A stretch of DNA of 64,000 bases from a bacterium (GTDB taxonomy: Bacteria; Ratteibacteria; UBA8468; B48-G9; JAFGKM01): assembly GCA_023230585.1 (NCBI GenBank), contig JALNXB010000003.1:22060-86059 (forward strand), in the 5' to 3' direction. The notes beneath the pieces are model-generated. The model saw only the letters and a list, made by a program, of their open reading frames with translations. It was not told the origin of the DNA and did no database searches. Position 1 is the stretch's first letter; the number at the start of each line of letters is the position of its first letter. The translations under genes and the position numbers were made by a program. Shown here one piece after another: positions 32,677-51,476 of this stretch.

Positions 32677-34630
32677 CTAGCGTGAGTTTCCCACTTTCAT
32701 AACATAAAATAATACAAAATTAAGTAAGGATAAGGGTTTCCGCTTATTTTTTATGTATATACTAAAATAAATAATTAAAACAATATTATATACTCTTAAA
32801 ATGCTTGTTATTAAAAAGAATAAAAATATATTTGACAAAATAAAAAGGTATGTATATACTAATGTTATTATGGCAACATTACAGAAGAAAAAAGTAAATG
32901 GCAATGAATACTGGTATATAGTGGAATGCAGAAGGATTAATGGCAAACCTCAACCTGTTGTGCTTGAATATATAGGCAAGGTAGAGAATTTATTGAAACG
33001 TATTGAACAACAACGTGATAGAACAGTGAAGAGTTTTTCTCACGGCGCAGTATTGGGGTTATTAAATGCAAGTAAAGAGATAGAATTGCTGAACATACTT
33101 AATAAATATTTTCCTAAACAGAAGCGGGATGGGCTTAGCGTTGGACAGACCATCTTACTGGGAGCAATTCACCGGGTTGTCAAACCTGCAAGCAAGAGAA
33201 GTTTTAGTCAGTGGGTAGAGACCACCACTTTGCCTGAACAATGGGGTTTTGATGTGCGACGGATAACCAGTCAGCATTTCTGGGACCAGATGGATAAAAT
33301 AAGACAAGAAGATATAGAAAAGATAGAGGAGGAGATAATCAGGACGGTAGATAAGAAATATAGGTTAAACTGGTCTATATTGTTTTACGACAGCACAAAC
33401 TTTTATACTTATATTAATACCAGCAACTCAAAGAATACCATCGGGCAACGAGGCAAAAATAAACAGAAGAGAGATGACCTACGGCAATACAATCTCGCTC
33501 TTTTAACCACGAAAGATTTTTTTCTACCCATTTTTTCGTATATCTATCAGGGTAACAAGAATGATGTTTCTATCTTTCCTGAGTATTTGGAAAAAATGCT
33601 GCAAAGGTTGAAAAGCATTGTCGGGCAGGTTGAAGAAATAACGCTTGTTTTTGACAAGGGCAATAACAGCTCGAAAGGAATGGACATATTAAAGGAAAAG
33701 AAACTTGGGTATGTGGGGACACTCTCTATTTATTCTCATTCTGACTTAATAAAAATCCCTTATAAAAAATATGAACAAATAGAATTAGCGGACGGTAAAA
33801 AGGTTCTCGTCCACAGAGCTGAAAAAGAATTATGGGGTAAAGAGCACAGGATAATAATTAAGAGAAGCGAAAAACTAAAAGACGGACAGATAAGAGGTTT
33901 CTTTTTAGATATAGATAAAAAAGTCAATTCCCTGGAGTTGTTGAAGGAAAAGCTGAATTCGCCTGGTGCAAGAAAAAGAAACAAAGAACAGCTTCAAGAA
34001 CAGATAAGCAAGATTATTTCTGGAAAGCTGCTCAAAGGAGTTATAAAGGTAGAAATAAAAGAATCTGCAGAGAATAAAAGTGGGTTTGATGTATTATGGG
34101 TGATTGATAAAAAAGCCCAGAATAAAATAATAAATGAAGTTTTCGGCAAAAAGATATTTTTCACCAACAGGATGGAATGGACAAACGAAGAAATAATTGA
34201 AGCATATCATGGGCAAAGTAAAATAGAAAGAATATTCAGGCACCTTAAAAATCCATATCATTTTAGTGTACGACCTCAATACCACTGGACTGACCAAAAG
34301 ATAAAAGTACATACCTTCATTTGTCTGCTGGGATTATTGATAAGCGAGCTTTTGAGAAAAAAACTCTTTGACGCCGGTATGAAAATGTCGCTGGAGGAAA
34401 TCATAGAACGATTATCCAATATAAGAAAATCAACCACAATCTATTATACGGGTAAAAAGGGTAGACCAAAGGTTGAAAGCCAGTTGGAATCTATGAGCGA
34501 TATAGAAGAACAAATGTGGAAAATAATACAAAAAACAGCAGTTTAGTATATACAAGTCAAAATTGCTGTGTTATAATTATATCAATGGGTTCGACGCTTT
34601 TTTCCTTCTAAAGTGGGAAACTCACGCTAG
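32677..34630 (+). mobile_element. IS1634-family (IS4 superfamily) insertion sequence, ~1.95 kb, with 21-bp perfect terminal inverted repeats
   Basis: The left end ctagcgtgagtttcccacttt (32677-32697) is the exact reverse complement of the right end aaagtgggaaactcacgctag (34610-34630). A single 581-aa transposase ORF lies inside. Confidence 0.75.
32801..34546 (+). CDS. Transposase, IS1634 family
   Basis: 581 aa. The N-terminal ...KKVNGNEYWYIVECRRINGKPQPVVLEYIGK... matches the characteristic IS1634 N-terminus (gk.Y.Ylv.s.r..gk.rq..l.ylG). Size and single-ORF organisation fit IS1634. The alternative start is MATLQKK (32870). Confidence 0.7.
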   Translation: MLVIKKNKNIFDKIKRYVYTNVIMATLQKKKVNGNEYWYIVECRRINGKPQPVVLEYIGKVENLLKRIEQQRDRTVKSFSHGAVLGLLNASKEIELLNILNKYFPKQKRDGLSVGQTILLGAIHRVVKPASKRSFSQWVETTTLPEQWGFDVRRITSQHFWDQMDKIRQEDIEKIEEEIIRTVDKKYRLNWSILFYDSTNFYTYINTSNSKNTIGQRGKNKQKRDDLRQYNLALLTTKDFFLPIFSYIYQGNKNDVSIFPEYLEKMLQRLKSIVGQVEEITLVFDKGNNSSKGMDILKEKKLGYVGTLSIYSHSDLIKIPYKKYEQIELADGKKVLVHRAEKELWGKEHRIIIKRSEKLKDGQIRGFFLDIDKKVNSLELLKEKLNSPGARKRNKEQLQEQISKIISGKLLKGVIKVEIKESAENKSGFDVLWVIDKKAQNKIINEVFGKKIFFTNRMEWTNEEIIEAYHGQSKIERIFRHLKNPYHFSVRPQYHWTDQKIKVHTFICLLGLLISELLRKKLFDAGMKMSLEEIIERLSNIRKSTTIYYTGKKGRPKVESQLESMSDIEEQMWKIIQKTAV

Positions 34631-34692: not shown

Positions 34693-34902
34693 TTATATCT
34701 TAATAGTAAGCTTCTTGCGTGAATTTGCGATATTTTTCCAAGATATTTCGTTTTCATGTGCTAAGCGATCTAATACAATATCAACGCTTATTCTATGACT
34801 CTTAGCAAAGTTTACGACTTCTTGTTTGTTAGAGTTTTGTAAATAGTCATCATCTTTAGTGGTAGCGAGGATTTCACTTACTATTTTTATAGAAAACCTC
34901 AA
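34693..34902 (-). other. Small ORF (69 aa) carrying a methyltransferase-tail-like block; probable gene remnant
   Basis: Contains ILATTKDDDYLQNSNKQ, encoded by a ~55-nt segment (34821-34875) that is nearly identical to 37878-37933 inside the frameshifted MTase tail ORF. The rest of the ORF is unrelated. Confidence 0.3.
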
Positions 34903-35378
34903 AAAAGAATACCCCCGCGGTGTTCATCCCATTTAGCAAGCTGAATTTTGCGATTAGTCATATACTCAAGCATGTCTTCACGCTGATATTTATTTATAAT
35001 ATTGTTTAAATGCACACTTAACCCTTGGGGAGATATCAGAATTGCTTGTGAAGGTCTTACAAGCTTTGAATAGACAAGGATTTGAGCAAGATGAGAAAAG
35101 TTTAAAGCTCCATATTTCACCTCTATAAATATCAATCCATACTTGTCTTTTTCTTTTACAACGCCTAATAAATCAATTTTGATTTTATATGTAGGATAGT
35201 CCGGAAAGTTTTTTCGAAACGTAGTTTTTGTAAAAAAATCGCTCAAGTAGATGTTATGAACATCATGAACCGTAACCTCAGCATTCCGATTCTTATTTTG
35301 CAGATAATCACAAAACCATTTTTTCATCGGTACATATAAAACAATCTCTCGTTTGGAAGTGTTTCCCTGCCTATTCAT
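34899..35378 (-). CDS. PD-(D/E)xK nuclease-fold candidate protein
   Basis: 159 aa. IDLLGVVKEKDKYGLIFIEVKYG gives a D...E-V-K arrangement typical of restriction-endonuclease-like folds. No further family assignment is possible by eye. Confidence 0.35.
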   Translation of the reverse strand: MNRQGNTSKREIVLYVPMKKWFCDYLQNKNRNAEVTVHDVHNIYLSDFFTKTTFRKNFPDYPTYKIKIDLLGVVKEKDKYGLIFIEVKYGALNFSHLAQILVYSKLVRPSQAILISPQGLSVHLNNIINKYQREDMLEYMTNRKIQLAKWDEHRGGILF

Positions 35379-35624
35379 TTTCTGTAATAGTAATTAAGTA
35401 ATTTAAAAGTTCCCTCCAATGGTTAAAATGTCGCCCTCGAAGAAAAACAGGTAGTTTTTCTGAAATTTCCTCTTTATGTTCTGGTTTTTCTTTTATCCTG
35501 TATGCCTTTTTTTTTCCTGCTGAGCGATAAATCATATTGCGATTTTTACTCGCCAATTCTTTAAGTACTTTATCTTTATGATTTAAATAGGAGCCTACCA
35601 GGGCAAATTGATTTGCAAAGATTT

Positions 35625-36259
35625 TTATTTGATGTTCTTTCGCCCAAAAACCCTTTGCTTTTTTTGTTCAGGATCTCTAAAATTCGGATGTCCAAAATCT
35701 ATAGTATGTATTGGCATTTCAATGTTATATAACAACTTAGCTAAATCAGCAATAAGCAACCAATTTCTCTGATCTGCTTCCAAATATATACGATGTTGAT
35801 CTTCTTTTCCAAAAGCAGCATTAGATTTTCTGATATGTCCAGTTGTATCAAAGTATCTCCTTAAAAATTCTTTTTGTATCTCTTTGTCAGCTTCAAAAAT
35901 TGTTCTTGGAATTCTAAAGGAATGAAAATCCGTAAATTCATCATTCAAAAGATATTTTAAGATTAGCCATGATAAATCCTCTCTATGCCAAGTAATTATT
36001 AACGATACATCGTTTTTATTACGATTCTCTTTAGCAAGATCAAGACTATATTTACGTATTCTATTTACGACTACATCTAAGCTATTTTATAACTCCAAAG
36101 GCTTATTGTATACATCTTTATAGCTTTTAGCAACTAAATTTTTATATGGAAAAGTAATTACCAAGCGCCATATTTGTCCTTCCTTAACAAAAATCCCTTT
36201 CCCCACAATAAGCCCTAAAAGATACGCTATGTCCTCGTTAAGAAAATCAGCAAATTATA
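35625..36259 (-). pseudogene. Degenerate double-motif LAGLIDADG homing-endonuclease-like gene with internal stop
   Basis: The reverse-strand reading frame gives ...FADFLNEDIAYLLGLIVGKGIFVKEGQIW...KPLEL*NSLDVV...KEFLRRYFDTTGHIRKS.... The two blocks YLLGLIVGKGIF and FLRRYFDTTGHI match LAGLIDADG motifs 1 and 2, but the catalytic acidic residues are replaced (K, T). An in-frame TAA lies at about 36096. Only the distal 107 codons (35625..35948) appear as an ORF in the track. Confidence 0.45.
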
Positions 36260-36388
36260 TTGGTTTTTTTCAAATATCAAAAGATGAGGCTTCTTATCAC
36301 AATTTAAGCATTTTTCTAACTTCAAAAGAAATAAAAAACTTTCGCAAAATATTCTAAAATTTTTTTATGATGGTCAATGTTATCGTTT

Positions 36389-37768
36389 TTACTCTATTAA
36401 CTTATAACCTAACCATTTTTCAAAAATTTCTTTATTTTCAACTTTTAATTTTTTAGATTGATACATTTTAGAATAAATTGCTTTAATCTCTGAAATATCC
36501 TCGCTTGTTAATAATCTTTTTTCGAACATCTGATACAATGTATCAGAAATTTTATTTGTTAAAATTAAGGACCTAACATTGGAAATTCTTTCAATAAGAA
36601 AAAATATTTCTGGCTCAGAAATTGACTTGCCTTTGGACCATTGAAAGAAATATTTGAGTGCCTCTGTAATACCATTTACTCTGTTTTCGAAGCGAACTGA
36701 AGATAAGTAAATTTCCAATATTTCTTCTTTTGAACATACTTTTTCAAACCACAGAGCTAAAATTATTTCAACTATTTTTCGCCTAAAAGTTTTATTCATT
36801 TCTTTTATGAACAATGTTCTAACTAATTGCTGAGTAATAGTTGAACCTCCTGAACGACGTTTTTTTCCTATAATACCTAAAATAGCTCTTGCGATTGCTT
36901 TTATGCTAATTCCTTTATGTTTATAAAAACCACGATCTTCGATGAATATTAGATTTTTTTTAAATACTGTTAAATCAATTTTCATACGTTGAGTTTCATA
37001 CACTGCTAATTTAGCTCTGTAGATTACGTATTCAAAATCTTTTACAAGTCCTAAATGAAAACAACTAGCAAGTCTTTTAGCAAGACTTAATACTAATCTT
37101 TCATTTGTATCGTATAATGCGAAACGAAAAGAGAAAGAAATTACAATGACCCACAACATAAGAAAAATAGCAGCAAAGGTTATTTGATTACTTGGAGATG
37201 ACATAATACTAGATAATGAAACGAAATTTTTGATTATATGTGGCAAAATTCCATACAAAAGAATGGTCGAAGTTACACAAATTAGCCAAAAGGGATATGT
37301 AACATACGAAAACCAGCCAGGAAAAAGCTTTATGGCAAATGGATTAGTGGCTCCCTCTATTCTCCAATTAGGTAAAACTAAGTGCTGGGTGCCATAATAC
37401 AAACCTAGCATGTGTCTTAAAATGACAATTTTTCTTGAATCAAAAATTATTGACTTTTGCCTCTCTGCAAAATATCTTACCGTTAACCAAGAAAAAGAAC
37501 AAATTATAAATGTAAGAATTAATAACGTTTGTGTTGATAACGCACCATTAAAAAATTTAGTAGGATTGTGGAGAAAACTTACAGCTATTGAACCGAGCAT
37601 AGCAGATATTACGAGGATAAAATTTGCTGCGTTTAAAAATATTCGTTCTTGAGATTGAATATTTGCGGCACAATTTTCATATTCCTTAAGCAAAATATCT
37701 CTATCCGTAAATTTAGAAGCTGGATAATATTGTTGCCAATCAGCTTCTTTCTCTTTTAATTTGGTCAT
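36389..37768 (-). CDS. Polytopic membrane protein with C-terminal GT51 peptidoglycan-glycosyltransferase (transglycosylase) domain
   Basis: 459 aa. The N-terminal ~230 aa hold at least 6 predicted TM helices. The C-terminal part carries the diagnostic GT51 motifs EDRGFYKHKGISIKAIARA (EDxxFxxHxG) and GGSTITQQLVRTLF (GGSTITQQ), plus RRKIVEIILALWFE and EILEIYLSSVRF...ISEPEIFFL. It lies in an accessory/defense context, not in a cell-wall cluster. Confidence 0.6.
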   Translation of the reverse strand: MTKLKEKEADWQQYYPASKFTDRDILLKEYENCAANIQSQERIFLNAANFILVISAMLGSIAVSFLHNPTKFFNGALSTQTLLILTFIICSFSWLTVRYFAERQKSIIFDSRKIVILRHMLGLYYGTQHLVLPNWRIEGATNPFAIKLFPGWFSYVTYPFWLICVTSTILLYGILPHIIKNFVSLSSIMSSPSNQITFAAIFLMLWVIVISFSFRFALYDTNERLVLSLAKRLASCFHLGLVKDFEYVIYRAKLAVYETQRMKIDLTVFKKNLIFIEDRGFYKHKGISIKAIARAILGIIGKKRRSGGSTITQQLVRTLFIKEMNKTFRRKIVEIILALWFEKVCSKEEILEIYLSSVRFENRVNGITEALKYFFQWSKGKSISEPEIFFLIERISNVRSLILTNKISDTLYQMFEKRLLTSEDISEIKAIYSKMYQSKKLKVENKEIFEKWLGYKLIE

Positions 37769-37773
37769 AAATT

Positions 37774-37956
37774 TTAGGTTGAAGATTCATTTTCGATGGT
37801 TTGGATTTCTTCTTCGGTTAGGTCGTGGAGTTTATAGACAAGTTGGTCGATTTGTTTTTCGTATTCTTTAACTTTTGCTTGTTTGTTAGAGTTTTCTAAA
37901 TAGTCATCATCTTTAGTAGTAGCAAGGATTTTAGAATTATTCAAATCAATCTTCAT
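37774..37956 (-). other. Displaced C-terminal tail of the adjacent methyltransferase gene (separated by a +1 frameshift)
   Basis: The 60-aa ORF ends ...EKQIDQLVYKLHDLTEEEIQTIENESST. This is the canonical C-terminal tail of type IIG/Eco57I/PglX-class MTases (...IDrLVYeLYgLTeEEIkiVE). Its start overlaps the MTase stop (37946), and the frames differ by one nucleotide around ggaaatgaagattgattt (rc). Confidence 0.5.
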
Positions 37957-40900
37957 TTCCTAATAACCTAAACTCTAGTTCATAATTTTTTACAAATCTC
38001 AATTCTTCTTGACTAAGCCCATACAGGGGCGCAATGTAATCATCGATTCCATCAATATATTTTTTTGATTTGCTTATTTTATACTCCTTGAAGGAATCTA
38101 TATTTGCATAATTCCTTGTTGTTCTTATGCGCGCATTTTCTTCAACGCTTTTTAGATAAGTGACGTATAACTCTTTAATTTTTTTGATATTTTCCTTGCT
38201 TATTTTATTTAGGGGAATTGGAAATGATTCAACCTCGTACGATTTTAGATTTAAGTTATCGGAATAAATCTGATAAAACCAAAAAAATAAATTACTACTT
38301 AAAATTGCCCCCACAATGTCAGCTATCTCACTATCAAAACATATTTTTCTTTCCGCGGAAGAACCCGTAGAGTAGTTCGTAACGACTTTGAAATATCGCC
38401 CTCCAGCAAAACGATAATATATTGGTTTACCGCTGTCGTTTAAAAGATCTTTAATTTTTATTTTTAATTTGAGCAATTTTTTCAACATATCGATTTCGAT
38501 AGGTAAGCCAATTTTAGGATACCTTCCTCTAAGCTTATAATCTTTTACGTCTATAAATTGAAGGTTCTTCAATAAGTTAGCTAAATCAAATCTTTTTCCT
38601 TTCCTATACATTTTTGTTGTCATAATCTGCTCATTTCTTGCAAGCGTCTTAATAAAAAAAAGAATAGCTGTATTTACAACAGAATTTTCAAATATAGGCT
38701 GTGGTCTAACAGCGTAAGATGAAATTTTGATAATCCTGCAGTTTTCTTCCAAAAGTTCGTGTATATTTGCCATCGAATCGCTAGAAGTTATAGATATCGG
38801 TAATATGAAATTGAGACTGCCATTCTTTATTAGAATATTAAAGCCCATTTCAGTAAATATGACAAAGGTATCTGTAGAACCCCTTTGTCCTTCATAAGTT
38901 TTTGTGCTTTTATAGCGCATTTTAAAGAACTCTTTTTCCTGATTCGAATATTTAGCTCCATACGGCGGGTTTCCAATAACTATATCAAAACCACCTTTTT
39001 CAAAGACTTCTGCAAAGTAGAGTTTCCAGAGGAAAAACGGTCGTGTTTTATTCTTGCTGGTAAATTCTCGAAGTTGTTTTTCTATATTTTCTAAATCAAA
39101 GCCGGTTTTTTTAGAAAGTTTTTGTTTTTCTTTCGATATTTGTTCTTCGCGTGTTTTCTTGTTAGGAAGTATCTCATATTTCCTTTCAATGTCTTCTATT
39201 TGTCTAAAATAACCTGCTTTCTGTTTTTTTATTTTTGATTCAAAGATTTTTATCATCAAATCTTCCACTTCTTGTTTTAATTTATTTTTTTTATGTCTGT
39301 CGGATTCATTTTGAAAATCAAATTTCTTTTGCTCAAATTCTTTAATAATAGAGTCTGCCTTTTCTTCAAATCCCAACCCTGTCTGCTCTTTTTCTTCTCC
39401 GTTTTCTTTATCAAAATCTATCCCAAGAAATTCAGAAATCAGACTATTGCCCTGCATAATTTTAAAATCAAGGTTTGGCAATGCTTCAATCCCATAGTTT
39501 TCTTTTGTTTCATCAATTTTTTCATCTACAAGAAGAGAAATGAAGAAGCGTAGTTTAGTTATTTCTACAGCGATTTGCTGAATATCCACGCCGTAAATAC
39601 ATTTTTGTATTAAGTATAGTTTACGTCCATAGTCAGCATTTTTGTCTTTGAAGAATTCTTCAATCTGCTGTTTTGCAATTTTGCTGACCTGTAGGTCTGG
39701 TATTTTATTTGCGGCTGCGAGTTGTGCCTGTTTCCATAATTCGTTGTCAGGGTCAATTTTACCAAGGATAAATACCATCTTGTTAAGTGCGCCCATTGGA
39801 AAAGCACCTGAACCCACAGCCGGGTCAACAATTCTAACGCTTTCAATTAGTTCCGCAAGTTCTTTAGATTCAGATTTATTAAAAGGGTTTTCCTCTTTTT
39901 CTTTTGAAAACAAGGTGTCAAGTTTCCCGTCAATATTGTCTATTTCTGAAAGGTGTGTCTTGAAATACGCTTTAAGCGATTCTACAACCATATAATCAAC
40001 AATTTCTCTTGGAGTATAATAACTGCCGGTAGCTTTGCGAGCGGTAGTGGATGTCTCAGGATTAAAACTTGCCAGAAGATTTTCAAAAACCCTGCCCAGA
40101 AGTTCTGGGTCAAGAGCAATATCTGCATCGTCTGGAGAGTTTTCGTCAATAGTAAAGTTAAATGAAGATAAAATATTCAAAAGTCCCTGTACCTTATAGT
40201 TCTTGTTTTTAGTACCATAATCAGAGTTTAAGTCAATATTTTGCTCATCGCTGAAGAATAGAAAATTCGGGACACTCGGTTGATATTCTTGTTTTCTTTC
40301 AGTAAAACCATCTATGTAAATATCATTTGTACCATCATCGAGACAGTCAAACAGCCCACCGTTAAGAAACGGAATATTTCCAAAATATTCTTCCATTTTT
40401 TCAGAGTTTGTAAAAAGGTCATGGTAACGATATACGTATTGATTGCTGAAATCGGGATTATATCCTTTATACCCACGTATTTCGCTTCTGAACTGTCGTT
40501 CGCCTTTTTTGGTATTTAAGGTAGCGAAAAACAGGTTTTGCAAGATTGCCCGATAGTAAGTTGAATCGTCAGAATCAATGTTTTTAAGAATTCCATTGAT
40601 ATTTTCTTTTTCAAACAGTTCTTTTGGCATCAAACCTTTTTCCCGCATAAACCAGATAAAAATCATTCTTGTTATTAGCCGGATAATAGCAACATTCCTA
40701 CCATTATCTTCTACCTCGGCATCCTTGGGGAATCTGGAATTCTTAACCGCCCAGAAATACCAGTAAGCTATATCTTGGTAAAATTCCTTAGTAACCTTTT
40801 CTACAGAAAAAATTTCCTTAATTTTTTCCAGAGAAGAAAAATTACCTTCAGAAATTCTTTGAAGAAATGTTTTATTTGTAAGATCTTTACTTACAAAATA

Positions 40901-41287
40901 GGTAAAGCGGCGGAAAGCGCTCCAATCACGACGTTTACCCAGATAGTTTGCGTAGATTAAACTGAAACGAAAGTTGCCATTTTTATCATAAAAAATAAAA
41001 ATACCTGCATCGGTCTGGGTCTCTTTAAGGATTTTCTTACCCAGTTCATACTGTACTTTTTTCCCTGCTCTTTCTGTTAGAGGTTTTTTAACAGGCAACG
41101 AACATACTATTAGGTTTCCATCTTCAAAATCAATTTCTTCCAATTTGGTGCCCTGTCCGAAGTTATCATCCTCGTGACGCAGAGACTCATTGGGATGGCG
41201 GAATTTATCATTCGCCTCACGAAAAAACCTTATGAATTTTTCTTCATTAAAATTGTTAATAATATCCTGGAGAATTTGTCTTTTCAT
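37946..41287 (-). CDS. Gamma-class N6-adenine DNA methyltransferase with N-terminal helical domain and C-terminal target-recognition region (type IIG/PglX-like)
   Basis: 1113 aa. AdoMet motif I is DPAVGSGAFPMGAL. Catalytic motif IV is IVIGNPPYG, with a long coiled-coil insertion between motifs I and IV. The N-terminal region carries ...ILQNLFFATLNT...RYHDLF...IPFLNGGLFD, blocks typical of Eco57I/MmeI/PglX-type enzymes. The C-terminal ~300 aa is TRD-like. The start overlaps the stop of the PLD-SNF2 gene by 4 nt. Confidence 0.75.
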   Translation of the reverse strand: MKRQILQDIINNFNEEKFIRFFREANDKFRHPNESLRHEDDNFGQGTKLEEIDFEDGNLIVCSLPVKKPLTERAGKKVQYELGKKILKETQTDAGIFIFYDKNGNFRFSLIYANYLGKRRDWSAFRRFTYFVSKDLTNKTFLQRISEGNFSSLEKIKEIFSVEKVTKEFYQDIAYWYFWAVKNSRFPKDAEVEDNGRNVAIIRLITRMIFIWFMREKGLMPKELFEKENINGILKNIDSDDSTYYRAILQNLFFATLNTKKGERQFRSEIRGYKGYNPDFSNQYVYRYHDLFTNSEKMEEYFGNIPFLNGGLFDCLDDGTNDIYIDGFTERKQEYQPSVPNFLFFSDEQNIDLNSDYGTKNKNYKVQGLLNILSSFNFTIDENSPDDADIALDPELLGRVFENLLASFNPETSTTARKATGSYYTPREIVDYMVVESLKAYFKTHLSEIDNIDGKLDTLFSKEKEENPFNKSESKELAELIESVRIVDPAVGSGAFPMGALNKMVFILGKIDPDNELWKQAQLAAANKIPDLQVSKIAKQQIEEFFKDKNADYGRKLYLIQKCIYGVDIQQIAVEITKLRFFISLLVDEKIDETKENYGIEALPNLDFKIMQGNSLISEFLGIDFDKENGEEKEQTGLGFEEKADSIIKEFEQKKFDFQNESDRHKKNKLKQEVEDLMIKIFESKIKKQKAGYFRQIEDIERKYEILPNKKTREEQISKEKQKLSKKTGFDLENIEKQLREFTSKNKTRPFFLWKLYFAEVFEKGGFDIVIGNPPYGAKYSNQEKEFFKMRYKSTKTYEGQRGSTDTFVIFTEMGFNILIKNGSLNFILPISITSSDSMANIHELLEENCRIIKISSYAVRPQPIFENSVVNTAILFFIKTLARNEQIMTTKMYRKGKRFDLANLLKNLQFIDVKDYKLRGRYPKIGLPIEIDMLKKLLKLKIKIKDLLNDSGKPIYYRFAGGRYFKVVTNYSTGSSAERKICFDSEIADIVGAILSSNLFFWFYQIYSDNLNLKSYEVESFPIPLNKISKENIKKIKELYVTYLKSVEENARIRTTRNYANIDSFKEYKISKSKKYIDGIDDYIAPLYGLSQEELRFVKNYELEFRLLGNED

Positions 41288-44200
41288 AATTTTTGATTTT
41301 CAATAGCAACAATAATTTCTTTAGTTAAATTCTTTTGTTGGAATTTCTCTCTTTCAAGATAATCAGCACCAAGTTTATCTTTCAAAGCATAGATTTCTTT
41401 GAGAGATTGGTTAAGTTGTTTTTCTGTGCTGCTTTCAAAGTTGGCTATCCTTCGCAATGTATAATCCGGCAATGTGCCATAATCGGTAATATCTTCAAGC
41501 AGTACTTTTAAGAAATTTTTTACCAGTTGTATTTCTTCTGTATGGTTTCTATATATAAGTGTCTTAAGGTTGTTCTTGGCTTGTTCTTCCAAACTTCGTT
41601 CAGTTGGCGGTCCTACTCTGTGATCCCTGAAGTTTTTTATACTTTCATAAGCACTCCAAAACTTTGCTCCGAGTTCTAACGGTTCTTCGTCAGGTTTACA
41701 CAGAATTTTATTGTAGGATTCTTCAAAAGTTGCCTGAAAAAAGGTATCTTTCTCTTCCTGCTTGTATATGGTTCCATGAATATACAGTCTGCCTTTTTTA
41801 AGAAAGACCAATAGTTCATCTGTATCAGCTTTTTTTGCCACTTTTATACGTGGAGGGAAAGTTTCCAAAGCAGCAATTAGACCTGGATTTTCTTTTTTTA
41901 TTCTTATAAACTCTTTTAAAGCCTTTGTATAAAAACTTTCTTCTTCCAGTTTGTCGGGATTTTGTTGCATTTTGTTATATAATTTGGCAGGAGACGGTTC
42001 TTCGTCAATAGCAAATATTTTAGAATCTTCACCGAGAGTATTATGAATCAAAAACATTTTATTGCTGGCAATCTCCCTTGCTTGTACCAATTCTGCCCCC
42101 TGTTCAGTAGGAAAGAAGTTGACGATAAAAAGTTTGTCAAACACTTTTTTACTTATTCGGTTGATACGTCCCAACCGTTGAATAATGCGAACAGGATTCC
42201 ATGGAATATCATAATTGATGACAATACCAGAACGGTTTAGGTTAAAACCTTCTGAAATTTTATCTGAAGATAACAAGATATCAAAATCATCTTTCTGTTC
42301 AGAGAAGGAAGCGTCAAAATTTGTGTTTATTGCAGATAGGTTTTTTGCTGTCAGGTCACCAGCAATAACCAGCAACCTATCGCCAAAGACTTTTTTAATA
42401 TGTGGTTCAAGATATTTCACTGTATCAAGATATTCGGAAAAGATAACAATTTTTCTGTTGGGCTCTTTTTTTAGTTGAGATTCAAGGTTTTTAATCAAAC
42501 AAGATGTCTTGGGATCATTTCTGACCAGATTAAATTTATTCAGAGAATCAAGAATTTCATTGAAAAGCTTCAGGTCAGATTTTATGTCTTCTATAAATTC
42601 ATCTCTATACTTAAAGTCAGCCAGTTTATAAACTTTATGGTTTTTAGGATACTCGCCTGCGTTGATTTTTTTCGTATATTCGTCCAGATGTTCTTCAATC
42701 TCTTCTGGTTCTTTGTCGTATATTCGTTCAAGCAAACTTCTATCCAGTATATATTTGCCTGTTCGCTCAATGAATGTTAAGACTGATTCAGCAATACGTT
42801 TGAAGTTTTTAAGACTTTGTTCAAAGGAGCCGAACGAACTTTCAAATCTTTTTACCAGCAACCGGCGCATAAAATCGTATAGATTACGTTGGGAATAAAA
42901 TTCAAAATTTTCTTTATCAGACAGTTTTTCTCCCACAATTTTTTCTTTTGCCGTTTCGTATTCAAAAGGCCTGTAAATCGCTCCCTTAAACATTCCGCCG
43001 TTATCAGGGTCGCCAAAGTATAATTTGATTACATTGTCATAAAGAACAGATTGTTCCTTTGTCAGTTCAAAGAACCATTCTTTAGGGTCGGCAACCTTAG
43101 ACAGATTTTTTACTTCTTTGTTATAATCTGGGTTTTCTTCCAAATCTAAACGATTGCGTCGAATAGTTACGGGTTCTATAACATCTCGTATCTGTTTTGC
43201 CAGATATTTTGAACGTCTTGCTACTTTTTCCAAACCAGAGACAACATCAAATTTTTCTCCAAAAAATGTTTTGTAATCACTATGTGCTTTACTACGTTTT
43301 TGCTGGTTTGTTGCATTCCAGTGTTTCTTGATATAACCGAGTCGGTCAAAAGAACCTTTGAAAGACTTGAAGCGATCAACAAGACTGTTTTCCATGGTTA
43401 TTGATGATTTCTTTGGAGTGATAAATAGTTTGAGAAGTGATAAAATGTCACCTGGGCGGTTGTTGAACGGAGTAGCAGTAAGAAGCATTACTAATTTGTT
43501 ACGACAGATATTTTTTAAATATTCATAACTCTCCGTATCTTGGTTTCTGAACCGATGTGCTTCGTCAACTATAACAACCTCTACATCTTTGGTTTTCTTT
43601 ACAAATTCCTGAAGTTTTTCCAAATCACCGAGAGACCATACCTCCCAGTCATATAAACCAAATTGCTCTTTATACATATTCCAGCCGGAATCTTTTTTTC
43701 TGGGGTCTCCCATAATACCGGGCGGGCAGATTATTACTCCTCTTTTCCGCAATTCTTTGGCAACGGAACAAGCAATAATAGTTTTACCCAGCCCTACAAC
43801 GTCAGCAAGAATAACACCATTGTTGTTTTCTATTATTGCTAATGCTTGGCGAATAGCATCCAATTGATATTGATAAGGTATATAGCCGTTGTCTTCGAGA
43901 GTTTTGATAAGAGATTGCCCAATTTCTCTTTTTTCAAAAGAATCAAGGTATATTTTCAGAATAAGAACAAACGCTTCAAATGGAGTGATTTTTTTGACTA
44001 GGGTTTCTTTTTCAACAAGTTCTATCAATCTTTTCTTAAGATCTGTATTTTCGGTAATTTTGACCGCTTCGTTCCATAAGGTATCATAGTATTCTTCAGC
44101 ACTTTCAAAACCGTAATCGCTGATTTCAACGTTAAACTCTTCTTGAGTAGTAAGCCCTAAACCTGTAAGGTTACTGCTACCGGTGATGAAGAGATTTTGG

Positions 44201-44649
44201 CGTCCTACCTGCTCATCCTGCAATTTGAATATGTATAGTTTCGCATGGTTAGGATGGAAGGTCTTTCTTATAATGAGCCGATTACTTTTTATAAGGTCCA
44301 TAAAAAACTTGACTTGTATGTAAAATTCTTTGGTGTCAAACTTTTCAGTGTTAATGGATTTTTTTATGGATTCAAAAAACCTTTGGCTTATTTCTTCATT
44401 AGATAAACGACCGCTGTGATCATCTAAATCAGCATACTCAACCAATTGAAAATTTAATTTATCAACATTGAGACCAACCAGGACTTTAAGTATTACTTTG
44501 GGGTTTTGCTTGAGTTCAGAGCAAAGTTCCCTTATACCAGAGAAATAAAAAAAACCGACCAAAAATTTTAATTCATCACTTTTGCTTATCAGTTTAACCA
44601 GTCGTTTTTTTAGGTTTTCTGCACCACTATTGGTTATGAAATTTTTCAT
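41284..44649 (-). CDS. PLD-family nuclease domain fused to SNF2-family (SF2) helicase/ATPase
   Basis: 1121 aa. The N-terminus has a single PLD HKD-type motif HAKLYIF...ITGSSNLT (HxK...GSxN). The SNF2 motifs are motif I ADVVGLGKTIIA, motif II VVIVDEAHRFRN (DEAH), motif III LLTATPFNN and motif VI IIQRLGRINR. The 3' end overlaps the MTase start (translational coupling). Confidence 0.75.
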   Translation of the reverse strand: MKNFITNSGAENLKKRLVKLISKSDELKFLVGFFYFSGIRELCSELKQNPKVILKVLVGLNVDKLNFQLVEYADLDDHSGRLSNEEISQRFFESIKKSINTEKFDTKEFYIQVKFFMDLIKSNRLIIRKTFHPNHAKLYIFKLQDEQVGRQNLFITGSSNLTGLGLTTQEEFNVEISDYGFESAEEYYDTLWNEAVKITENTDLKKRLIELVEKETLVKKITPFEAFVLILKIYLDSFEKREIGQSLIKTLEDNGYIPYQYQLDAIRQALAIIENNNGVILADVVGLGKTIIACSVAKELRKRGVIICPPGIMGDPRKKDSGWNMYKEQFGLYDWEVWSLGDLEKLQEFVKKTKDVEVVIVDEAHRFRNQDTESYEYLKNICRNKLVMLLTATPFNNRPGDILSLLKLFITPKKSSITMENSLVDRFKSFKGSFDRLGYIKKHWNATNQQKRSKAHSDYKTFFGEKFDVVSGLEKVARRSKYLAKQIRDVIEPVTIRRNRLDLEENPDYNKEVKNLSKVADPKEWFFELTKEQSVLYDNVIKLYFGDPDNGGMFKGAIYRPFEYETAKEKIVGEKLSDKENFEFYSQRNLYDFMRRLLVKRFESSFGSFEQSLKNFKRIAESVLTFIERTGKYILDRSLLERIYDKEPEEIEEHLDEYTKKINAGEYPKNHKVYKLADFKYRDEFIEDIKSDLKLFNEILDSLNKFNLVRNDPKTSCLIKNLESQLKKEPNRKIVIFSEYLDTVKYLEPHIKKVFGDRLLVIAGDLTAKNLSAINTNFDASFSEQKDDFDILLSSDKISEGFNLNRSGIVINYDIPWNPVRIIQRLGRINRISKKVFDKLFIVNFFPTEQGAELVQAREIASNKMFLIHNTLGEDSKIFAIDEEPSPAKLYNKMQQNPDKLEEESFYTKALKEFIRIKKENPGLIAALETFPPRIKVAKKADTDELLVFLKKGRLYIHGTIYKQEEKDTFFQATFEESYNKILCKPDEEPLELGAKFWSAYESIKNFRDHRVGPPTERSLEEQAKNNLKTLIYRNHTEEIQLVKNFLKVLLEDITDYGTLPDYTLRRIANFESSTEKQLNQSLKEIYALKDKLGADYLEREKFQQKNLTKEIIVAIENQKL

Positions 44650-45267: not shown

Positions 45268-48147
45268 ATGAAATATATACAGCAACTTGAACCTGAACCA
45301 CCTCAACCTGAAGAAAAAGATTGGGGATTTATTAAAATTCTAAGTGAACCTCTACATCAACCTTTCAAATGGAAAAGACTCAAAGCAAAGGAGAGAGAAG
45401 CCTCTCTTAAATACGGAGTCAAAATCATCAACAAGTTCCCTGATAAAGAAGGATTGCTAGAAACTGCATTTGAAGATTTTAAGAGGTTTTTTGAATGCGG
45501 AGAAATATCTGTAGAAGGTACCTTTCCCATTGTTATAAAAAAAGTTAAAACATCTACATTTGAAGAGTATATTATCCTTATTAAAAAAGATAAAATAGAA
45601 GTGCAGGCAGGGGATACTGAGGGGATAAGGAGAGGATTGGTATATCTTGAGGACGAACTTTTGCGTTCGGGAGGACCTTTTCTCAAGTATGGTAAAATAA
45701 AGCGCACCCCTGTTATAAAAACTCGTATATCAAGATGTTGTTACGGACCTATAAACCGCCCTCCTAAAAATAGGGATGAACTTAATGATGATATAGACTA
45801 CTACCCAGATGAGTATCTCAACAGACTCGCTCATAATGGAGTAAACGGGTTATGGTTAACGATTACTTTCGCAGATACTGTTCCCTCTAAAATCATACCT
45901 GAATATGGCAAAAACTCAGAAAAACGGCTCAAAAAATTAAGGGCTACTGTTGACAAATGTAGGCGTTACGGAATAAAAATTTACCCTTTCTGTATTGAAC
46001 CAATAGCTTTTGCTATAGGTGACCCTATGATAAAAAAATATCCTGAACTTCAAGGGCACAACAATAATGCTTTTTCTTATTTCTGCACTTCTACTGATAA
46101 AGGGAAAGCATATATAAAAGAATCAATATACAACTTATTTAGTAGCGTTCCTAACCTTGGAGGTCTCATAAATATTTCAGTAGGAGAACGACCTACAAAC
46201 TGTTATGCAGGTACCTCGTTAAATAATAACTGTCCTTTATGTAGTAAAAGGGAGCCGGCAGAGGTTGTTTCCGAAATGCTTTCTATTATGGCAAAAAGTA
46301 TGCATAAAGCCAACCCTTCAGCCCAACTGATTTCTTGGCATTACAGTCAGTACGTAGGTTGGGGCGAAAAAGCAACAGAAGAAGCTGCTGGTAAAATGCC
46401 AAAAAACATTGTTCTTCAATTTAACTTTGAGTCTGCAGGGAGAACAGAACAACTCGGTAAGGTAAGATATGCAGGGGATTACTGGCTTTCTTATGTAGGA
46501 CCAAGCAATCTATTCAAAAAATGTGCTATAAATGCAGTCAAAGCAGGGACACCTATTTTTGCTAAAATACAGGTAAGTTGTTCGCATGAAGTGGCTACTG
46601 TACCTTGGATTTCAGTCCCGAGTTACCTCTACCGTAAATTTAAATCTATGCATAAATTAGGCGTTACCGGGGTAATGGAATGCTGGTTTTTTGGAGCATA
46701 CCCAGGGCTTATGACAAAAGCAGCAGGAGAACTTTCGTTTGCGCCGTTCCCAAAAAATGAAGATGTTTTTTTAAAAAAACTGGCAGGTTGCTGGTGGCAA
46801 GCAGATACTGCAAAAACTGTTGAAGCGTGGGAATTGTTTAGAGACGCTTATTCCAATTACCCAGTAAACGCTATGTTCGGGTATTATGGACCAATGCACG
46901 ACGGACCTGTATGGCCACTACATCTGAAACCACAAAACAAGCCTCTTGCTCCCACCTATCTAATAAATTACCCGCCAAGCGGAGACAGAATAGGGCAGTC
47001 TTTCACTTTTACTCACACCATCCCTGAAATATTGAGTTTATGCAAAAATATGTCTGAAGAGTGGAATAAAGGTGTAAAAATATTAAAAAAAGAGTTGGTT
47101 AAAAATCAAGGCAACATTGATATTGAAGAAAAGTTGAGGGTAGATGAAGCTCTCGGAATACAGTTTGAGAGCGGGTACCATATTCTTAGGTTTTATGACC
47201 TACGTGAAAAACTTTTTGAGATGGAAGGTCTAAAGCGGTTAAATATTCTCAAACAGATGAAACAGATTGTAGTTGATGAACTTGATAGAAGCAAACAACT
47301 TTTAGAACTTACAAAAAAAGACCCTCGTTTGGGTTTTCACGCAGAAGCTGAAGGTTATAAATATTTTCCTGAAAAAATTTTATGGAGGATGAAGTGGCTT
47401 GAACAAGTTCTTAAAGAAGATTTTCCTTATGTAGAAAAAGAAATTAAAAAAGGTAACTTGTTGTTCCCTGAATATACGGGTAAAAAACCTCCACCTCCTG
47501 TTTATAGATGCAAGGAAATCTCTAAAACAATCAGAGATAAAACTGAATCTATAATTGACAACCTCCTTGAAGAAAACCTGCCTTTCTGGTTCTATTTTGA
47601 TAAGACAAAAAAAGAGTTTAAACCTGAAACTGGTAAATTTGTGCAGAAATATAAGACTTTCTGGAAGGCTTTTTGCATTGAAGATGCTCTAAATTTTATT
47701 GTCAAATGCCAGACACCAAATATAGCAACTCTACAAGTAAAAGGGAAGCAAGAGTTTGAGTATATTGAAACTGTTCAAATACAGATAGAGACCAGACGGC
47801 TCTTCCCTCCTTCTAATTTCGTTGTTGATTCTAAAGGAGAGAAAAATTTAAGAAATATTGCTCACGGAAATTACACCCAAAAAGATTCTTTATGGAATGT
47901 TACAGTTAAGGTAGAAAACGACTCTTGGACTGCTTTTTTTCGAATACCTTACAAGTGTTTACCTCATACAAGCGATAGGTACAGGTTAAATATCGTTAGA
48001 GGTGTATCAAAAAAAGAAGGAGAAAGAGGACTTTTTAAAAGTTATATAAACAAGTGGATAGATTACAAAACACTTCCAAAAAATTTACTTGCTTTTGGCA
48101 GAGAAGACCCTGCTTACAATTTCGGTTGGTTGATAAAAGATGAATAG
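45268..48147 (+). CDS. GH42-like glycoside hydrolase (TIM barrel with Cys-rich Zn-site-like motif) with N- and C-terminal extensions; C-terminus CBM9-like
   Basis: 959 aa with no signal peptide. DYYPDEYLNRLAHNGVNGLWL resembles the GH42 N-terminal YYPE.W......G.N.V block. FSYFCTSTDKGKAYIKE and NCYAGTSLNNNCPLCSKREPAEVV line up with the GH42 Cys-cluster (HYCFSSP.../C....CYCPRCQ). The C-terminal W/Y-rich block resembles the CBM9-like domain of the 1401-aa protein. Confidence 0.4.
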   Translation: MKYIQQLEPEPPQPEEKDWGFIKILSEPLHQPFKWKRLKAKEREASLKYGVKIINKFPDKEGLLETAFEDFKRFFECGEISVEGTFPIVIKKVKTSTFEEYIILIKKDKIEVQAGDTEGIRRGLVYLEDELLRSGGPFLKYGKIKRTPVIKTRISRCCYGPINRPPKNRDELNDDIDYYPDEYLNRLAHNGVNGLWLTITFADTVPSKIIPEYGKNSEKRLKKLRATVDKCRRYGIKIYPFCIEPIAFAIGDPMIKKYPELQGHNNNAFSYFCTSTDKGKAYIKESIYNLFSSVPNLGGLINISVGERPTNCYAGTSLNNNCPLCSKREPAEVVSEMLSIMAKSMHKANPSAQLISWHYSQYVGWGEKATEEAAGKMPKNIVLQFNFESAGRTEQLGKVRYAGDYWLSYVGPSNLFKKCAINAVKAGTPIFAKIQVSCSHEVATVPWISVPSYLYRKFKSMHKLGVTGVMECWFFGAYPGLMTKAAGELSFAPFPKNEDVFLKKLAGCWWQADTAKTVEAWELFRDAYSNYPVNAMFGYYGPMHDGPVWPLHLKPQNKPLAPTYLINYPPSGDRIGQSFTFTHTIPEILSLCKNMSEEWNKGVKILKKELVKNQGNIDIEEKLRVDEALGIQFESGYHILRFYDLREKLFEMEGLKRLNILKQMKQIVVDELDRSKQLLELTKKDPRLGFHAEAEGYKYFPEKILWRMKWLEQVLKEDFPYVEKEIKKGNLLFPEYTGKKPPPPVYRCKEISKTIRDKTESIIDNLLEENLPFWFYFDKTKKEFKPETGKFVQKYKTFWKAFCIEDALNFIVKCQTPNIATLQVKGKQEFEYIETVQIQIETRRLFPPSNFVVDSKGEKNLRNIAHGNYTQKDSLWNVTVKVENDSWTAFFRIPYKCLPHTSDRYRLNIVRGVSKKEGERGLFKSYINKWIDYKTLPKNLLAFGREDPAYNFGWLIKDE

Positions 48148-50608: not shown

Positions 50609-51211
50609 ATGAGTTTAACAGAGAAACAACAAAAGATACTTGATTACATTAAAAAACAGATTCAAGAGAACGGCTACCCGCCCACAATACGAGAGATAGG
50701 TGAAAAATTCTCTTTATCTTCAACAGGTAGCGTTAGGGACCATTTAAAAGTTCTTAGTGACAAAAAATATATAGAACGTCTTCCTGGAATCTCACGAGGT
50801 ATTCGGTTACAGGATAAACCTTTACAATCTTCTTCTACTTCTATCCCCGTTGTAGGAAGGATTACTGCTGGCAAACCAGAACTTGCCATAGAAGATATTG
50901 AGGGCACAATATGCATAGATAAAAAACTTGTTGATAAAGGTACAACTTTTGCTTTAAAGGTTAAGGGAGATAGTATGATTGACGCAGGTATACAAGAAGG
51001 TGACTATGTAATTGTTAAACCTCAAAATGTATGTGAGCAGGGTGAAATTATTATTGCTTTGATTGAAGGTGAAGCCACAGTAAAAAGGTTCAAACGTAAA
51101 GGTAACAACCTTTTTTTACAACCAGCCAACCCTTCTTATGAACCAATAAAAATTGATGAAAGGGTCAAAATTATAGGTAAAGTAGTCGGTCTTATAAGGT
51201 ATTACAACTAA
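50609..51211 (+). CDS. lexA: LexA repressor (SOS response)
   Basis: The N-terminal winged-HTH is ...LTEKQQKILDYIKKQIQENGYPPTIREIGEKF. The C-terminal S24 peptidase domain carries the catalytic Ser in VKGDSMIDAGI and the Lys in GEATVKRFKRKGN. The autocleavage region PVVGRITAGKP holds the AG cleavage bond. Confidence 0.85.
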   Translation: MSLTEKQQKILDYIKKQIQENGYPPTIREIGEKFSLSSTGSVRDHLKVLSDKKYIERLPGISRGIRLQDKPLQSSSTSIPVVGRITAGKPELAIEDIEGTICIDKKLVDKGTTFALKVKGDSMIDAGIQEGDYVIVKPQNVCEQGEIIIALIEGEATVKRFKRKGNNLFLQPANPSYEPIKIDERVKIIGKVVGLIRYYN

Positions 51212-51226
51212 AAGGATAACCATAAA

Positions 51227-51475
51227 ATGATGGAAGAAATTATGGAAGAAATAGAGATAGAGGCACACTTTAGTAGCAACAAAATTAAACCAAAATGGTT
51301 CCTATGGAACAATAGAAAATATTATATAGATAAAGTAAACTATATCTGGCACAATAAAGACGGAGAAGAGGTTATCTACTATTTTTCAGTAGTTGTTGGT
51401 GCTAATCTTTATGAACTCTCTTTTTATACAAAAAAACTCAAATGGCTCTTAAGCAAGGTTTATATTGAGGGATAA
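51227..51475 (+). CDS. Small hypothetical protein co-transcribed between lexA and dinB
   Basis: 82-aa ORF with a good RBS spacing (aaaaggataacc). It abuts the dinB start. Family not recognised; YolD-like or other SOS accessory proteins are a possibility. Confidence 0.4.
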   Translation: MMEEIMEEIEIEAHFSSNKIKPKWFLWNNRKYYIDKVNYIWHNKDGEEVIYYFSVVVGANLYELSFYTKKLKWLLSKVYIEG

Positions 51476-51476
51476 A

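What the first reader, a model, noticed from the sequence alone, without database searches (positions are those of the whole stretch)
36389..37768. Peptidoglycan transglycosylase (GT51) domain fused to a polytopic membrane domain inside the defense island
The C-terminal half has the diagnostic GT51 motifs (EDRGFYKHKGI, GGSTITQQLVRTLF, RKIVEIILALWFE, EILEIYLSSVRF), normally seen in class A PBPs and MtgA with a single N-terminal anchor. Here it follows about 6 TM helices, has no transpeptidase domain, and sits between a LAGLIDADG pseudogene and an RM-like system. It could be a moonlighting or decayed cell-wall gene, a mobile-element-borne wall-remodelling factor, or a membrane-associated defense effector acting on peptidoglycan precursors (lipid II).
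Basis: partly seen in the sequence, partly recalled or inferred. Interest (0 to 1): 0.7.

Follow-up and report, generated by a model that had tools for sequence, protein, structure and literature searches.

The report
Polytopic-membrane GT51 glycosyltransferase, Audmula-like
This is an intact gene for a peptidoglycan-polymerising (GT51) enzyme fused to an uncharacterised four-helix membrane domain; it belongs to a rare, horizontally scattered single-gene family whose only known counterpart in architecture is the recently described lactococcal anti-phage protein Audmula.

The parts
36389..37768 (-). Complete ORF, 459 aa: polytopic-membrane monofunctional GT51 protein
   Evidence: ORF list. The identical protein occurs on 3 independent assemblies. 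Full-length homologues share 41-83% identity. dN/dS is 0.27.
37637..37768 (-). N-terminal soluble segment (res 1-44), highly charged, with invariant W11, Q13, P16, F20, E29, Y30 and E41
   Evidence: Alignment A1. Mean 5.8 K+R and 9.1 D+E. There is no signal peptide.
37568..37636 (-). TM1 (res 45-67), marginally hydrophobic
   Evidence: KD peak 2.1 in this protein. Family median Hessa dG is +3.8. AF2 builds helix 23-67 at pLDDT 81-87.
37469..37534 (-). TM2 (res 79-100)
   Evidence: Median dG is -1.0.
37304..37468 (-). Conserved basic loop 2 (res 101-155), consensus RYFADRQK..RK..LRRMLGL.YG..LVLPNWRIEGA..PFAI.LFPGW, with many invariant residues; candidate regulatory or substrate-handling element
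   Evidence: Invariant R103, R112, K113, R118, G126, P133, R136, E138, G139, A140, P143, F149, G151 and W152. Mean 8.1 K+R. pLDDT is low at 121-140.
37235..37303 (-). TM3 (res 156-178)
37115..37183 (-). TM4 (res 196-218)
36569..37039 (-). GT51 (Transgly) domain, res 244-400. Catalytic E277 is at 36938-36940 and E334 at 36767-36769. The GGSTITQQ..R317 motif and K326 are also here.
36392..36568 (-). C-terminal helical tail (res 401-459), family-specific and less conserved
   Evidence: Alignment A1. AF2 helices 404-454 at pLDDT above 90.
37774..37956 (-). 60-aa ORF: orphan C-terminal tail of a type IIG methyltransferase, ending 5 nt before the GT51 start; it travels with the GT51 gene
   Evidence: PADLOC REase_MTase_IIG C-terminal hits. 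In L056 the same tail is in frame with the upstream MTase ORF, and the block shared with the window at 87% nt identity is 37884-36240.
37946..44649 (-). Co-directional RM/DISARM-like pair directly upstream: PLD-SNF2 helicase (41284-44649) and Eco57I-type N6-methyltransferase (37946-41287). This is context, not a conserved partner.
   Evidence: Pfam and PADLOC. It is not conserved next to other family members.

Best explanation
The gene encodes a functional monofunctional peptidoglycan glycosyltransferase (GT51, a lipid II polymerase). Its catalytic domain is anchored and probably controlled by a family-specific four-helix membrane domain with a conserved basic loop. It is a stand-alone, horizontally transferred accessory gene. 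In this genome it arrived together with the 3' tail of a type IIG restriction gene and is now the last gene of a co-directional RM-like cluster in a low-GC defence island. The most likely role is the one shown for the architecturally equivalent lactococcal protein Audmula. In that model the enzyme adds to or alters the glycan strands of the sacculus, so that phage muralytic enzymes work poorly and lysis or progeny release is delayed. Shown here: the gene is intact, under purifying selection, has catalytic-site integrity and the GT51 fold, the two domains are obligately fused, its distribution is patchy, it has no conserved partner gene, and the closest clade sits in defence contexts. Inferred only: enzymatic activity, the antiphage phenotype, and which side of the membrane the GT51 domain faces.
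Against: There is no PADLOC hit, and no experimental data exist for this family. Many members are orphans among housekeeping genes in Aeromonas, Shewanella, Sulfuricurvum, Hydrogenovibrio and others, so the defence-island association is partial. Homology to Audmula was not tested. Audmula's phmmer search found only 91 hits and it matches only the InterPro superfamily, so its GT domain is far more divergent than this one. Audmula was studied in a thick-walled monoderm, whereas this family is found almost only in diderm lineages, where wall thickening as a lysis barrier is less obvious. The positive-inside rule places the GT51 domain in the cytoplasm, which conflicts with periplasmic wall synthesis.
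Confidence: 0.5

Rival explanations
1. Cytoplasm-facing GT51 acting as an abortive-infection-type effector. With topology N-in/C-in, the catalytic domain would see lipid II on the inner leaflet before flipping. When triggered through the conserved N-terminal segment or loop 2, it would polymerise or sequester lipid II and undecaprenyl carrier on the wrong side of the membrane. That would shut down wall synthesis and kill or arrest the infected cell.
For: Family-wide charge bias: loop 2 has 8.1 K+R and the N-tail 5.8 K+R, against 1.3 and 1.1 in the two short loops. The TM2 C-flank is K/R-rich. The N-tail is 44 aa, highly charged and has no signal peptide. There is an even number of hydrophobic helices. 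All conserved extramembrane elements lie on the same side as GT51.
Against: Every characterised GT51 enzyme acts on the outer face of the membrane (established knowledge). TM1 is marginal (median dG +3.8), so the parity could be odd. The Audmula phenotype is non-Abi with a thicker wall. No trigger or toxicity evidence exists. No coordinates or dedicated topology predictor were available.
Confidence: 0.17
2. An accessory peptidoglycan synthase unrelated to phage defence. It would be an extra MtgA-like polymerase used for wall repair, stress tolerance, or resistance to muralytic or lipid II-targeting competitors (T6SS effectors, bacteriocins, lysozyme). It would be only a passenger in this island.
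For: Many members are single genes between metabolic or housekeeping genes. The context is the same in three Aeromonas dhakensis assemblies, with an LpoB-family gene two genes away. The catalytic machinery is canonical. NCBI names members 'biosynthetic peptidoglycan transglycosylase'.
Against: The distribution is extremely patchy, about 37 of 185,579 species. Its position varies between genomes. The clade closest to the window is repeatedly adjacent to RM, DISARM or GmrSD. One copy beside a type I RM is a pseudogene, suggesting turnover like that of defence genes.
Confidence: 0.25
3. A functional component of the adjacent RM-like system: a fourth gene of the helicase, methyltransferase and tail operon, for example one coupling DNA-level defence to the envelope.
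For: There is a 5-nt gap to the upstream ORF and the same orientation. The same tail, 5-nt gap and GT51 arrangement occurs in L056. A type IIG gene lies upstream in L052.
Against: No neighbour is conserved across 38 loci. The upstream methyltransferases differ in sequence, and only the last roughly 110 nt of the tail is shared. Most members have no RM neighbour at all.
Confidence: 0.05
4. A decaying or non-functional remnant of a class A PBP that lost its transpeptidase domain.
For: It lacks a TPase domain. The Pfam match covers profile positions 26-153 of 178, and motif 5 was not matched.
Confidence: 0.02

Closest known systems
Audmula (Lactococcus plasmid pUCCL630_365, 392 aa; Grafakou et al. 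NAR 2024, PMC11381338; PNAS 2025, PMC12184496)
   Same: It is a single-gene system with about four N-terminal TM helices followed by a helical domain whose best structural match is S. aureus MtgA (3VMR/3VMT). It is located on mobile or defence-associated DNA. It has no transpeptidase domain.
Monofunctional glycosyltransferase MtgA (S. aureus 3VMQ-3VMT/3HZS; E. coli MtgA; TIGR02070)
   Same: It is a GT51-only enzyme without a transpeptidase. It has the same fold, and all catalytic and donor-site residues are conserved.
   Different: MtgA has one N-in/C-out anchor helix. This protein has a 4-helix, roughly 240-aa conserved membrane domain and a family-specific C-terminal tail. Its TIGR02070 score is 73.9 against a cut-off of 182.65. 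The FFLIERVSN segment replaces the usual AGLPQAP region, and motif 5 was not matched. MtgA is a vertically inherited, near-core gene, whereas this family is sporadic.
Class A penicillin-binding proteins (PBP1a/1b/1c, TIGR02074 etc.)
   Same: It has a homologous GT51 domain with 25-36% identity.
   Different: It has no transpeptidase, UB2H or OB domains. It is polytopic rather than bitopic. Its scores are far below the family cut-offs (117.9 against 508.75).

Membership tests
GT51 / Pfam PF00912 Transgly | Profile match above the curated gathering score | tested here: met
   122.9 bits against a cut-off of 27, E=1.3e-35, residues 269-397.
GT51 / Pfam PF00912 Transgly | Motif 1 EDxxFxxHxG with the catalytic Glu (S. 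aureus MtgA E100) | tested here: met
   EDRGFYKHKG is at residues 277-286. E277, D278, F281 and G286 are invariant in 34 homologues.
GT51 / Pfam PF00912 Transgly | Motif 2 GxSTxTQQ plus the donor-site basic residues (MtgA K140, R148) | tested here: met
   GGSTITQQLVR is present. G307, G308, S309, T310, Q313, Q314 and R317 are invariant, and K326 aligns with R148 and is invariant.
GT51 / Pfam PF00912 Transgly | Motif 3 RKxxE (second Glu, MtgA E156) | tested here: met
   RRKIVE is present, and R329, R330, K331 and E334 are invariant.
GT51 / Pfam PF00912 Transgly | Motifs 4 and 5 (KxxILxxYxN; RRxxVL) | tested here: inconclusive
   Motif 4 is present but reads YLSSVRF, with S where N is usual; K347 and Y354 are invariant. 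The Pfam match stops at profile position 153 of 178, and motif 5 is not recognisable, although L403 and K406 are nearly invariant.
GT51 / Pfam PF00912 Transgly | Lysozyme-like head plus jaw fold | tested here: met
GT51 / Pfam PF00912 Transgly | Lipid II polymerase activity at the outer face of the cytoplasmic membrane | not testable with these tools
   This needs biochemistry and topology mapping. Sequence rules predict the opposite face.
MtgA (TIGR02070 equivalog) | Full-length score above the equivalog cut-off; single N-terminal anchor | tested here: not met
   73.9 bits against a cut-off of 182.65. It has four hydrophobic helices and a roughly 240-aa N-terminal domain.
Class A PBP (TIGR02074 and others) | GT51 plus a transpeptidase domain | tested here: not met
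   There is no transpeptidase match. The score is 117.9 against a cut-off of 508.75.
Audmula antiphage system | Single-gene system with no obligate partner | tested here: met
   No neighbour cluster is shared by more than 4 of 38 loci.
Audmula antiphage system | About four N-terminal TM helices followed by a transglycosylase-like C-terminal domain | tested here: met
   compared with the published description.
Audmula antiphage system | Detectable sequence homology to pUCCL630_365 | not testable with these tools
   No Audmula sequence is held in the paper text or supplements. Indirect evidence points to at most remote similarity: it had 91 phmmer hits and only a superfamily-level InterPro match. 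An exhaustive N-domain search found no hit of about 392 aa, and tblastn of the N-domain against PLSDB plasmids found nothing.
Audmula antiphage system | Antiphage phenotype with endolysin escape mutants and a thicker wall | not testable with these tools
   Experimental only.
Catalogued defence systems (PADLOC-DB v2.0.0) | Match to any defence-protein HMM | tested here: not met
   0 families at E<=0.01. Audmula itself was not in PADLOC or DefenseFinder as of July 2026.

The most novel reading that the evidence does not exclude
The GT51 domain of this family faces the cytoplasm, giving topology N-in/C-in. It would be the first lipid II polymerase-type domain acting on the inner leaflet. The conserved N-terminal segment and basic loop 2 would work as a trigger-controlled switch, and the domain as an effector that polymerises or sequesters lipid II before flipping. 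That would collapse wall synthesis in infected cells, or sense blockage of the precursor pathway by phage lysis proteins.
Probability: 0.18. Interest if true: 0.85.

Novelty: new variant of a known kind. Interest (0 to 1): 0.6.

Why it matters
A polytopic membrane domain fused to a wall-polymerising GT51 domain has so far been validated only once, as Audmula (2024-2025). That case was in a Gram-positive dairy bacterium, its GT domain is highly divergent, and its mechanism is unresolved. This window shows a separate family with the same architecture. The family is catalytically canonical, strongly conserved, and spread by horizontal transfer through many Gram-negative phyla. The window copy and its closest clade sit immediately beside RM, DISARM or GmrSD systems. 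If the family is antiphage, envelope remodelling as immunity extends to diderm bacteria. It would also offer a tractable enzyme, with known catalytic residues and a known inhibitor (moenomycin), for studying how such systems work. The predicted cytoplasmic orientation raises a question that can be tested directly, and the same question applies to Audmula, whose topology its authors did not address.

Tried and rejected
1. tblastn of the full protein against PLSDB plasmids hit only ordinary or split class A PBPs; five hits were inspected. The N-terminal domain alone gave no plasmid hit even at E<=1.
2. The phage searches were negative. tblastn against phage genomes found only GT51-domain hits and none full length. 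BFVD Foldseek gave nothing at E<=0.001. The IMG/VR scan gave a single locus, at a contig edge. The gene is therefore not phage-borne.
3. I tried to obtain the Audmula sequence or accession from the papers. Only a BioProject number is given and no supplements are held, so homology is untested.
6. I tried to use TM parity in the insert-bearing variants (587-596 aa) to fix the topology. My crude hydropathy segmentation was too noisy and the result is inconclusive.
7. Promoter and terminator scans were at chance level.
8. The container-alignment census of 143 neighbour proteins against Pfam and PADLOC returns only family-level counts. It shows heterogeneity but not a per-locus enrichment statistic.
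9. The 1,593 hits include PBPs that match through GT51 alone, so I do not use that number as the family size. The N-domain count of 133 clusters is used instead.

Full report
OBSERVATION. The ORF at 36389-37768 on the minus strand is real: ATG start, 459 aa. The identical protein is called on three independent assemblies from ENA, Logan and JGI, with the same neighbours. Pfam Transgly (PF00912) matches residues 269-397 at E=1.3e-35, well above the gathering score. NCBIfam models for PBP1a/1b/1c and MtgA match only through this domain and score far below their full-length cut-offs. There is no transpeptidase domain. The TM count needs correcting. Kyte-Doolittle hydropathy, the AlphaFold2 secondary structure and the Hessa insertion scale all give four helices, at about 45-67, 79-100, 156-178 and 196-218. 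TM1 is only marginally hydrophobic across the family, with median dG +3.8 kcal/mol against 0 or less for TM2-4.

THE PROTEIN AND ITS FAMILY. A homologue search returned many full-length relatives of 446-480 aa, at 41-83% identity over 93-99% of the query. They come from Vibrio, Aeromonas, Shewanella, Marinomonas, Salinivibrio, Photobacterium, Hydrogenovibrio and many metagenomes. In an alignment of 34 diverse members, 72 columns are invariant, and they are spread over the whole protein. The conserved parts include the charged N-terminal segment, the basic 55-residue loop between TM2 and TM3 (RYFADRQK..PNWRIEGA..LFPGW), the juxtamembrane linker, and the GT51 motifs.

A profile alignment to S. 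aureus MtgA maps the key residues onto invariant positions. The acceptor-site base pair E100/D101 corresponds to E277/D278. The donor-site residues K140 and R148 correspond to R317 and K326. E156 corresponds to E334.

THE N-TERMINAL DOMAIN. It has no Pfam relative, tested with 7 diverse members at E<=1, and no specific structural relative. An exhaustive phmmer search of residues 1-265 against 1.84 billion cluster representatives found only 133 clusters at E<=1e-3. Hits of 410-500 aa align across the whole N-terminal domain. Shorter hits are probably fragments from short contigs, and a few are longer (526-596 aa). All ten hits that I scanned with Pfam, including the longer and the most divergent ones, still carry Transgly. 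On this evidence the fusion is obligate and the domain has no other known context.

DISTRIBUTION AND CONTEXT. A pattern scan of one genome per species (185,579 species) confirmed 37 loci. They lie in Gammaproteobacteria, Desulfuromonadota, Campylobacterota, Desulfovibrionaceae, Bacteroidota, Kapaibacteria, Acidobacteriota, Gemmatimonadota, Nitrospirota, Binatia, Chlamydiales and Patescibacteria. This is a lower bound, but it plainly shows a sporadic, HGT-type distribution. After clustering all flanking ORFs, no neighbour family is shared by more than 4 of 38 loci, so the gene is a stand-alone module. The family is absent from PLSDB plasmids and from phage genomes. It occurs once in 2.9 million IMG/VR contigs, at a contig edge.

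The contexts fall into two groups. The window copy and its nearest relatives are in defence or MGE neighbourhoods:
- In the window, the gene is the last in a co-directional run of a PLD-SNF2 helicase, an Eco57I-type methyltransferase and a 60-aa ORF. An IS element and a low-GC trough lie nearby.
- P0002 (83% identity) follows a methyltransferase ORF with the same 5-nt gap and precedes a lipase-like gene and GmrSD.
- P0005 follows a type IIG RM gene and an HTH gene, and precedes a serine recombinase.
- P0008 lies among a NOV_C/SACS gene, a SEC-C gene, an AlpA-like HTH gene and a NERD-UvrD helicase.
- Further afield, L016 has DISARM DrmA/DrmB directly upstream. L036 has type I HsdR and PDC-S06 directly upstream, and there the GT51 gene is split into two ORFs.

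In contrast, the copies in Aeromonas dhakensis, Shewanella baltica, Sulfuricurvum, Hydrogenovibrio and several others are orphans between housekeeping genes such as the thiamine operon, GidA, MetH, DnaE and RecBCD. The defence association is therefore real for the window's clade but only partial for the family as a whole. I could not compute a proper enrichment statistic.

HOW THE GENE REACHED THIS ISLAND. The only DNA shared with the P0002 locus is window 37884-36240, at 87% identity. This block covers the last roughly 37 codons of a type IIG methyltransferase, a 5-nt spacer, the GT51 gene and about 150 nt downstream. In L056 that tail is in frame with an intact upstream methyltransferase ORF. 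In the window it is an orphan 60-aa ORF, because the resident 1113-aa methyltransferase has its own C-terminus. The left edge of the shared block falls inside a 54-nt direct repeat (37878-37931 and 34821-34874, 94% identical). The two repeat copies bracket a 3,057-bp segment. This pattern suggests cassette exchange by recombination at the 3' ends of RM genes. That is an inference.

- Ceduovirus escape mutants map to the muramidase domain of the endolysin.
- Cells expressing Audmula have thicker walls (27.2 nm against 22.6 nm).
- Virions mature inside the cell, but lysis is delayed.
- Purified wild-type endolysin degrades these cells about three times more slowly.
- The system is non-abortive.

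Neither paper addresses membrane topology or catalytic residues. As of July 2026 Audmula is not in PADLOC or DefenseFinder. I could not obtain its sequence, so homology is untested. Indirect evidence suggests at most a remote relationship. Audmula matches only the InterPro superfamily entry, and its phmmer search against nr70 gave just 91 hits. A canonical GT51 domain like the one here matches PBPs in hundreds of plasmid records alone. In addition, no hit of about 392 aa appeared in my exhaustive N-domain search. I therefore classify this family as a new variant of the Audmula kind. It shares the architecture and probably the logic, but has a canonical catalytic domain, a different host range (diderms) and no experimental data.

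MECHANISM. In the best-supported model, at about 0.5 confidence, the protein polymerises lipid II into extra or altered glycan strands. This would modify the sacculus so that phage muralytic enzymes are less effective, as proposed for Audmula. The four-helix domain and its conserved loop would hold, position or regulate the GT51 domain. The catalytic competence of the site and the obligate fusion of the two domains are shown here. The activity itself and the phenotype are inferred.

One observation does not fit this model, and that is the predicted topology. The TM2-TM3 loop carries 8.1 K+R on average and the N-tail 5.8, against 1.3 and 1.1 for the two short, variable loops. The N-tail is 44 residues long, highly charged and has no signal peptide. 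There are four hydrophobic helices. The positive-inside rule therefore predicts N-in/C-in, which puts the GT51 domain on the cytoplasmic face, where no GT51 enzyme is known to work. Because TM1 is marginal, an odd number of membrane spans cannot be excluded. I had no model coordinates and no dedicated topology predictor.

If the cytoplasmic orientation is real, the protein could act on inner-leaflet lipid II as a suicide or sensing effector. I give this reading a probability of about 0.18. The other rivals are a non-defence accessory PG synthase (0.25), a true component of the RM operon (0.05) and a decayed PBP (0.02, effectively refuted).

VERDICT. I rate novelty as a new variant of a known kind, and interest at 0.6. 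The interest rests on three points: the family extends an almost unexplored class of envelope-based immunity to Gram-negative phyla, the enzyme is tractable, and the topology paradox can be tested directly.

Noticed in passing
window 34821-34874 and 37878-37931: A 54-nt direct repeat (94% identical) brackets a 3,057-bp segment. The segment holds the type IIG tail, the GT51 gene, a LAGLIDADG-like remnant and a 159-aa ORF. Each repeat copy forms the 5' part of a small ORF (60 aa and 69 aa) that overlaps the stop codon of the gene upstream. This may be a recombination scar of cassette exchange.
   Followed up: partly
window 37774-37956 (-): This 60-aa ORF is an orphan C-terminal tail of a type IIG restriction-methyltransferase (PADLOC C-terminal hits). 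In locus L056 the same tail is in frame with an intact upstream methyltransferase ORF.
   Followed up: yes
window 37946-44649 (-): A PLD-SNF2 helicase (1121 aa) and an Eco57I/MmeI-type N6-methyltransferase (1113 aa) overlap by 4 nt. PADLOC hits fall on both type IIG REase-MTase and DISARM DrmMI models, so the system type is unresolved.
   Followed up: partly
window 32677-34630: An IS element with perfect 21-nt terminal inverted repeats and a 581-aa DDE_Tnp_1 transposase is inserted at the edge of the island.
   Followed up: partly
window 35625-36260 (-): A LAGLIDADG-like reading frame contains the motifs YLLGLIVGKG and FLRRYFDTTGH and one in-frame stop. Pfam LAGLIDADG_3 gives only E=0.023, below the cut-off, so the homing-endonuclease call is weak.
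   Followed up: partly
window 34899-35378 (-): A 159-aa ORF has a PD-(D/E)XK-like motif (IDLLGV...IFIEVKYG). Its only matches are weak, to PADLOC PDC-S11 and a YraN-like NCBIfam model.
   Followed up: no
window 45268-49402 (+): A 959-aa ORF with no Pfam match overlaps the start of an exo-beta-N-acetylmuramidase NamZ gene (48140-49402). It may be a peptidoglycan-recycling pair bordering the island.
   Followed up: no
window 50609-52700 (+): A LexA repressor gene lies next to a Y-family (ImpB/MucB/DinB-type) polymerase gene, forming an SOS cassette just beyond the island.
   Followed up: no
window 35000-39000: GC content falls to 0.29-0.31 here against about 0.35-0.38 for the rest of the window, consistent with recent acquisition of the segment carrying the GT51 gene.
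   Followed up: no
L036 10004-11397: In a Desulfovibrionaceae MAG the family gene is split into two ORFs (235 and 190 aa), so it is an apparent pseudogene. It lies directly downstream of a type I HsdR gene and a PDC-S06 (AAA_13) gene.
   Followed up: partly
L016 3330-11341: A DISARM module (DrmA, DrmB and a 261-aa ORF) lies immediately upstream of the family gene and in the same orientation.
   Followed up: partly
L043/L044/L045 8381-8967: In three Aeromonas dhakensis assemblies an LpoB-family lipoprotein gene lies two genes upstream of the family gene. LpoB is the activator of PBP1b. This could be coincidence or a wall-synthesis link.
   Followed up: no
P0214, P0216, P0219 (587-596 aa): A subgroup of the family carries an insertion of roughly 100-150 residues with extra hydrophobic segments between TM3 and the GT51 domain. 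The number of added membrane spans could not be determined.
   Followed up: partly
L059 9142-10425: This is the only IMG/VR viral contig with a family member (35% identity). The gene sits at the very end of the predicted provirus, so it may be flanking host DNA.
   Followed up: no
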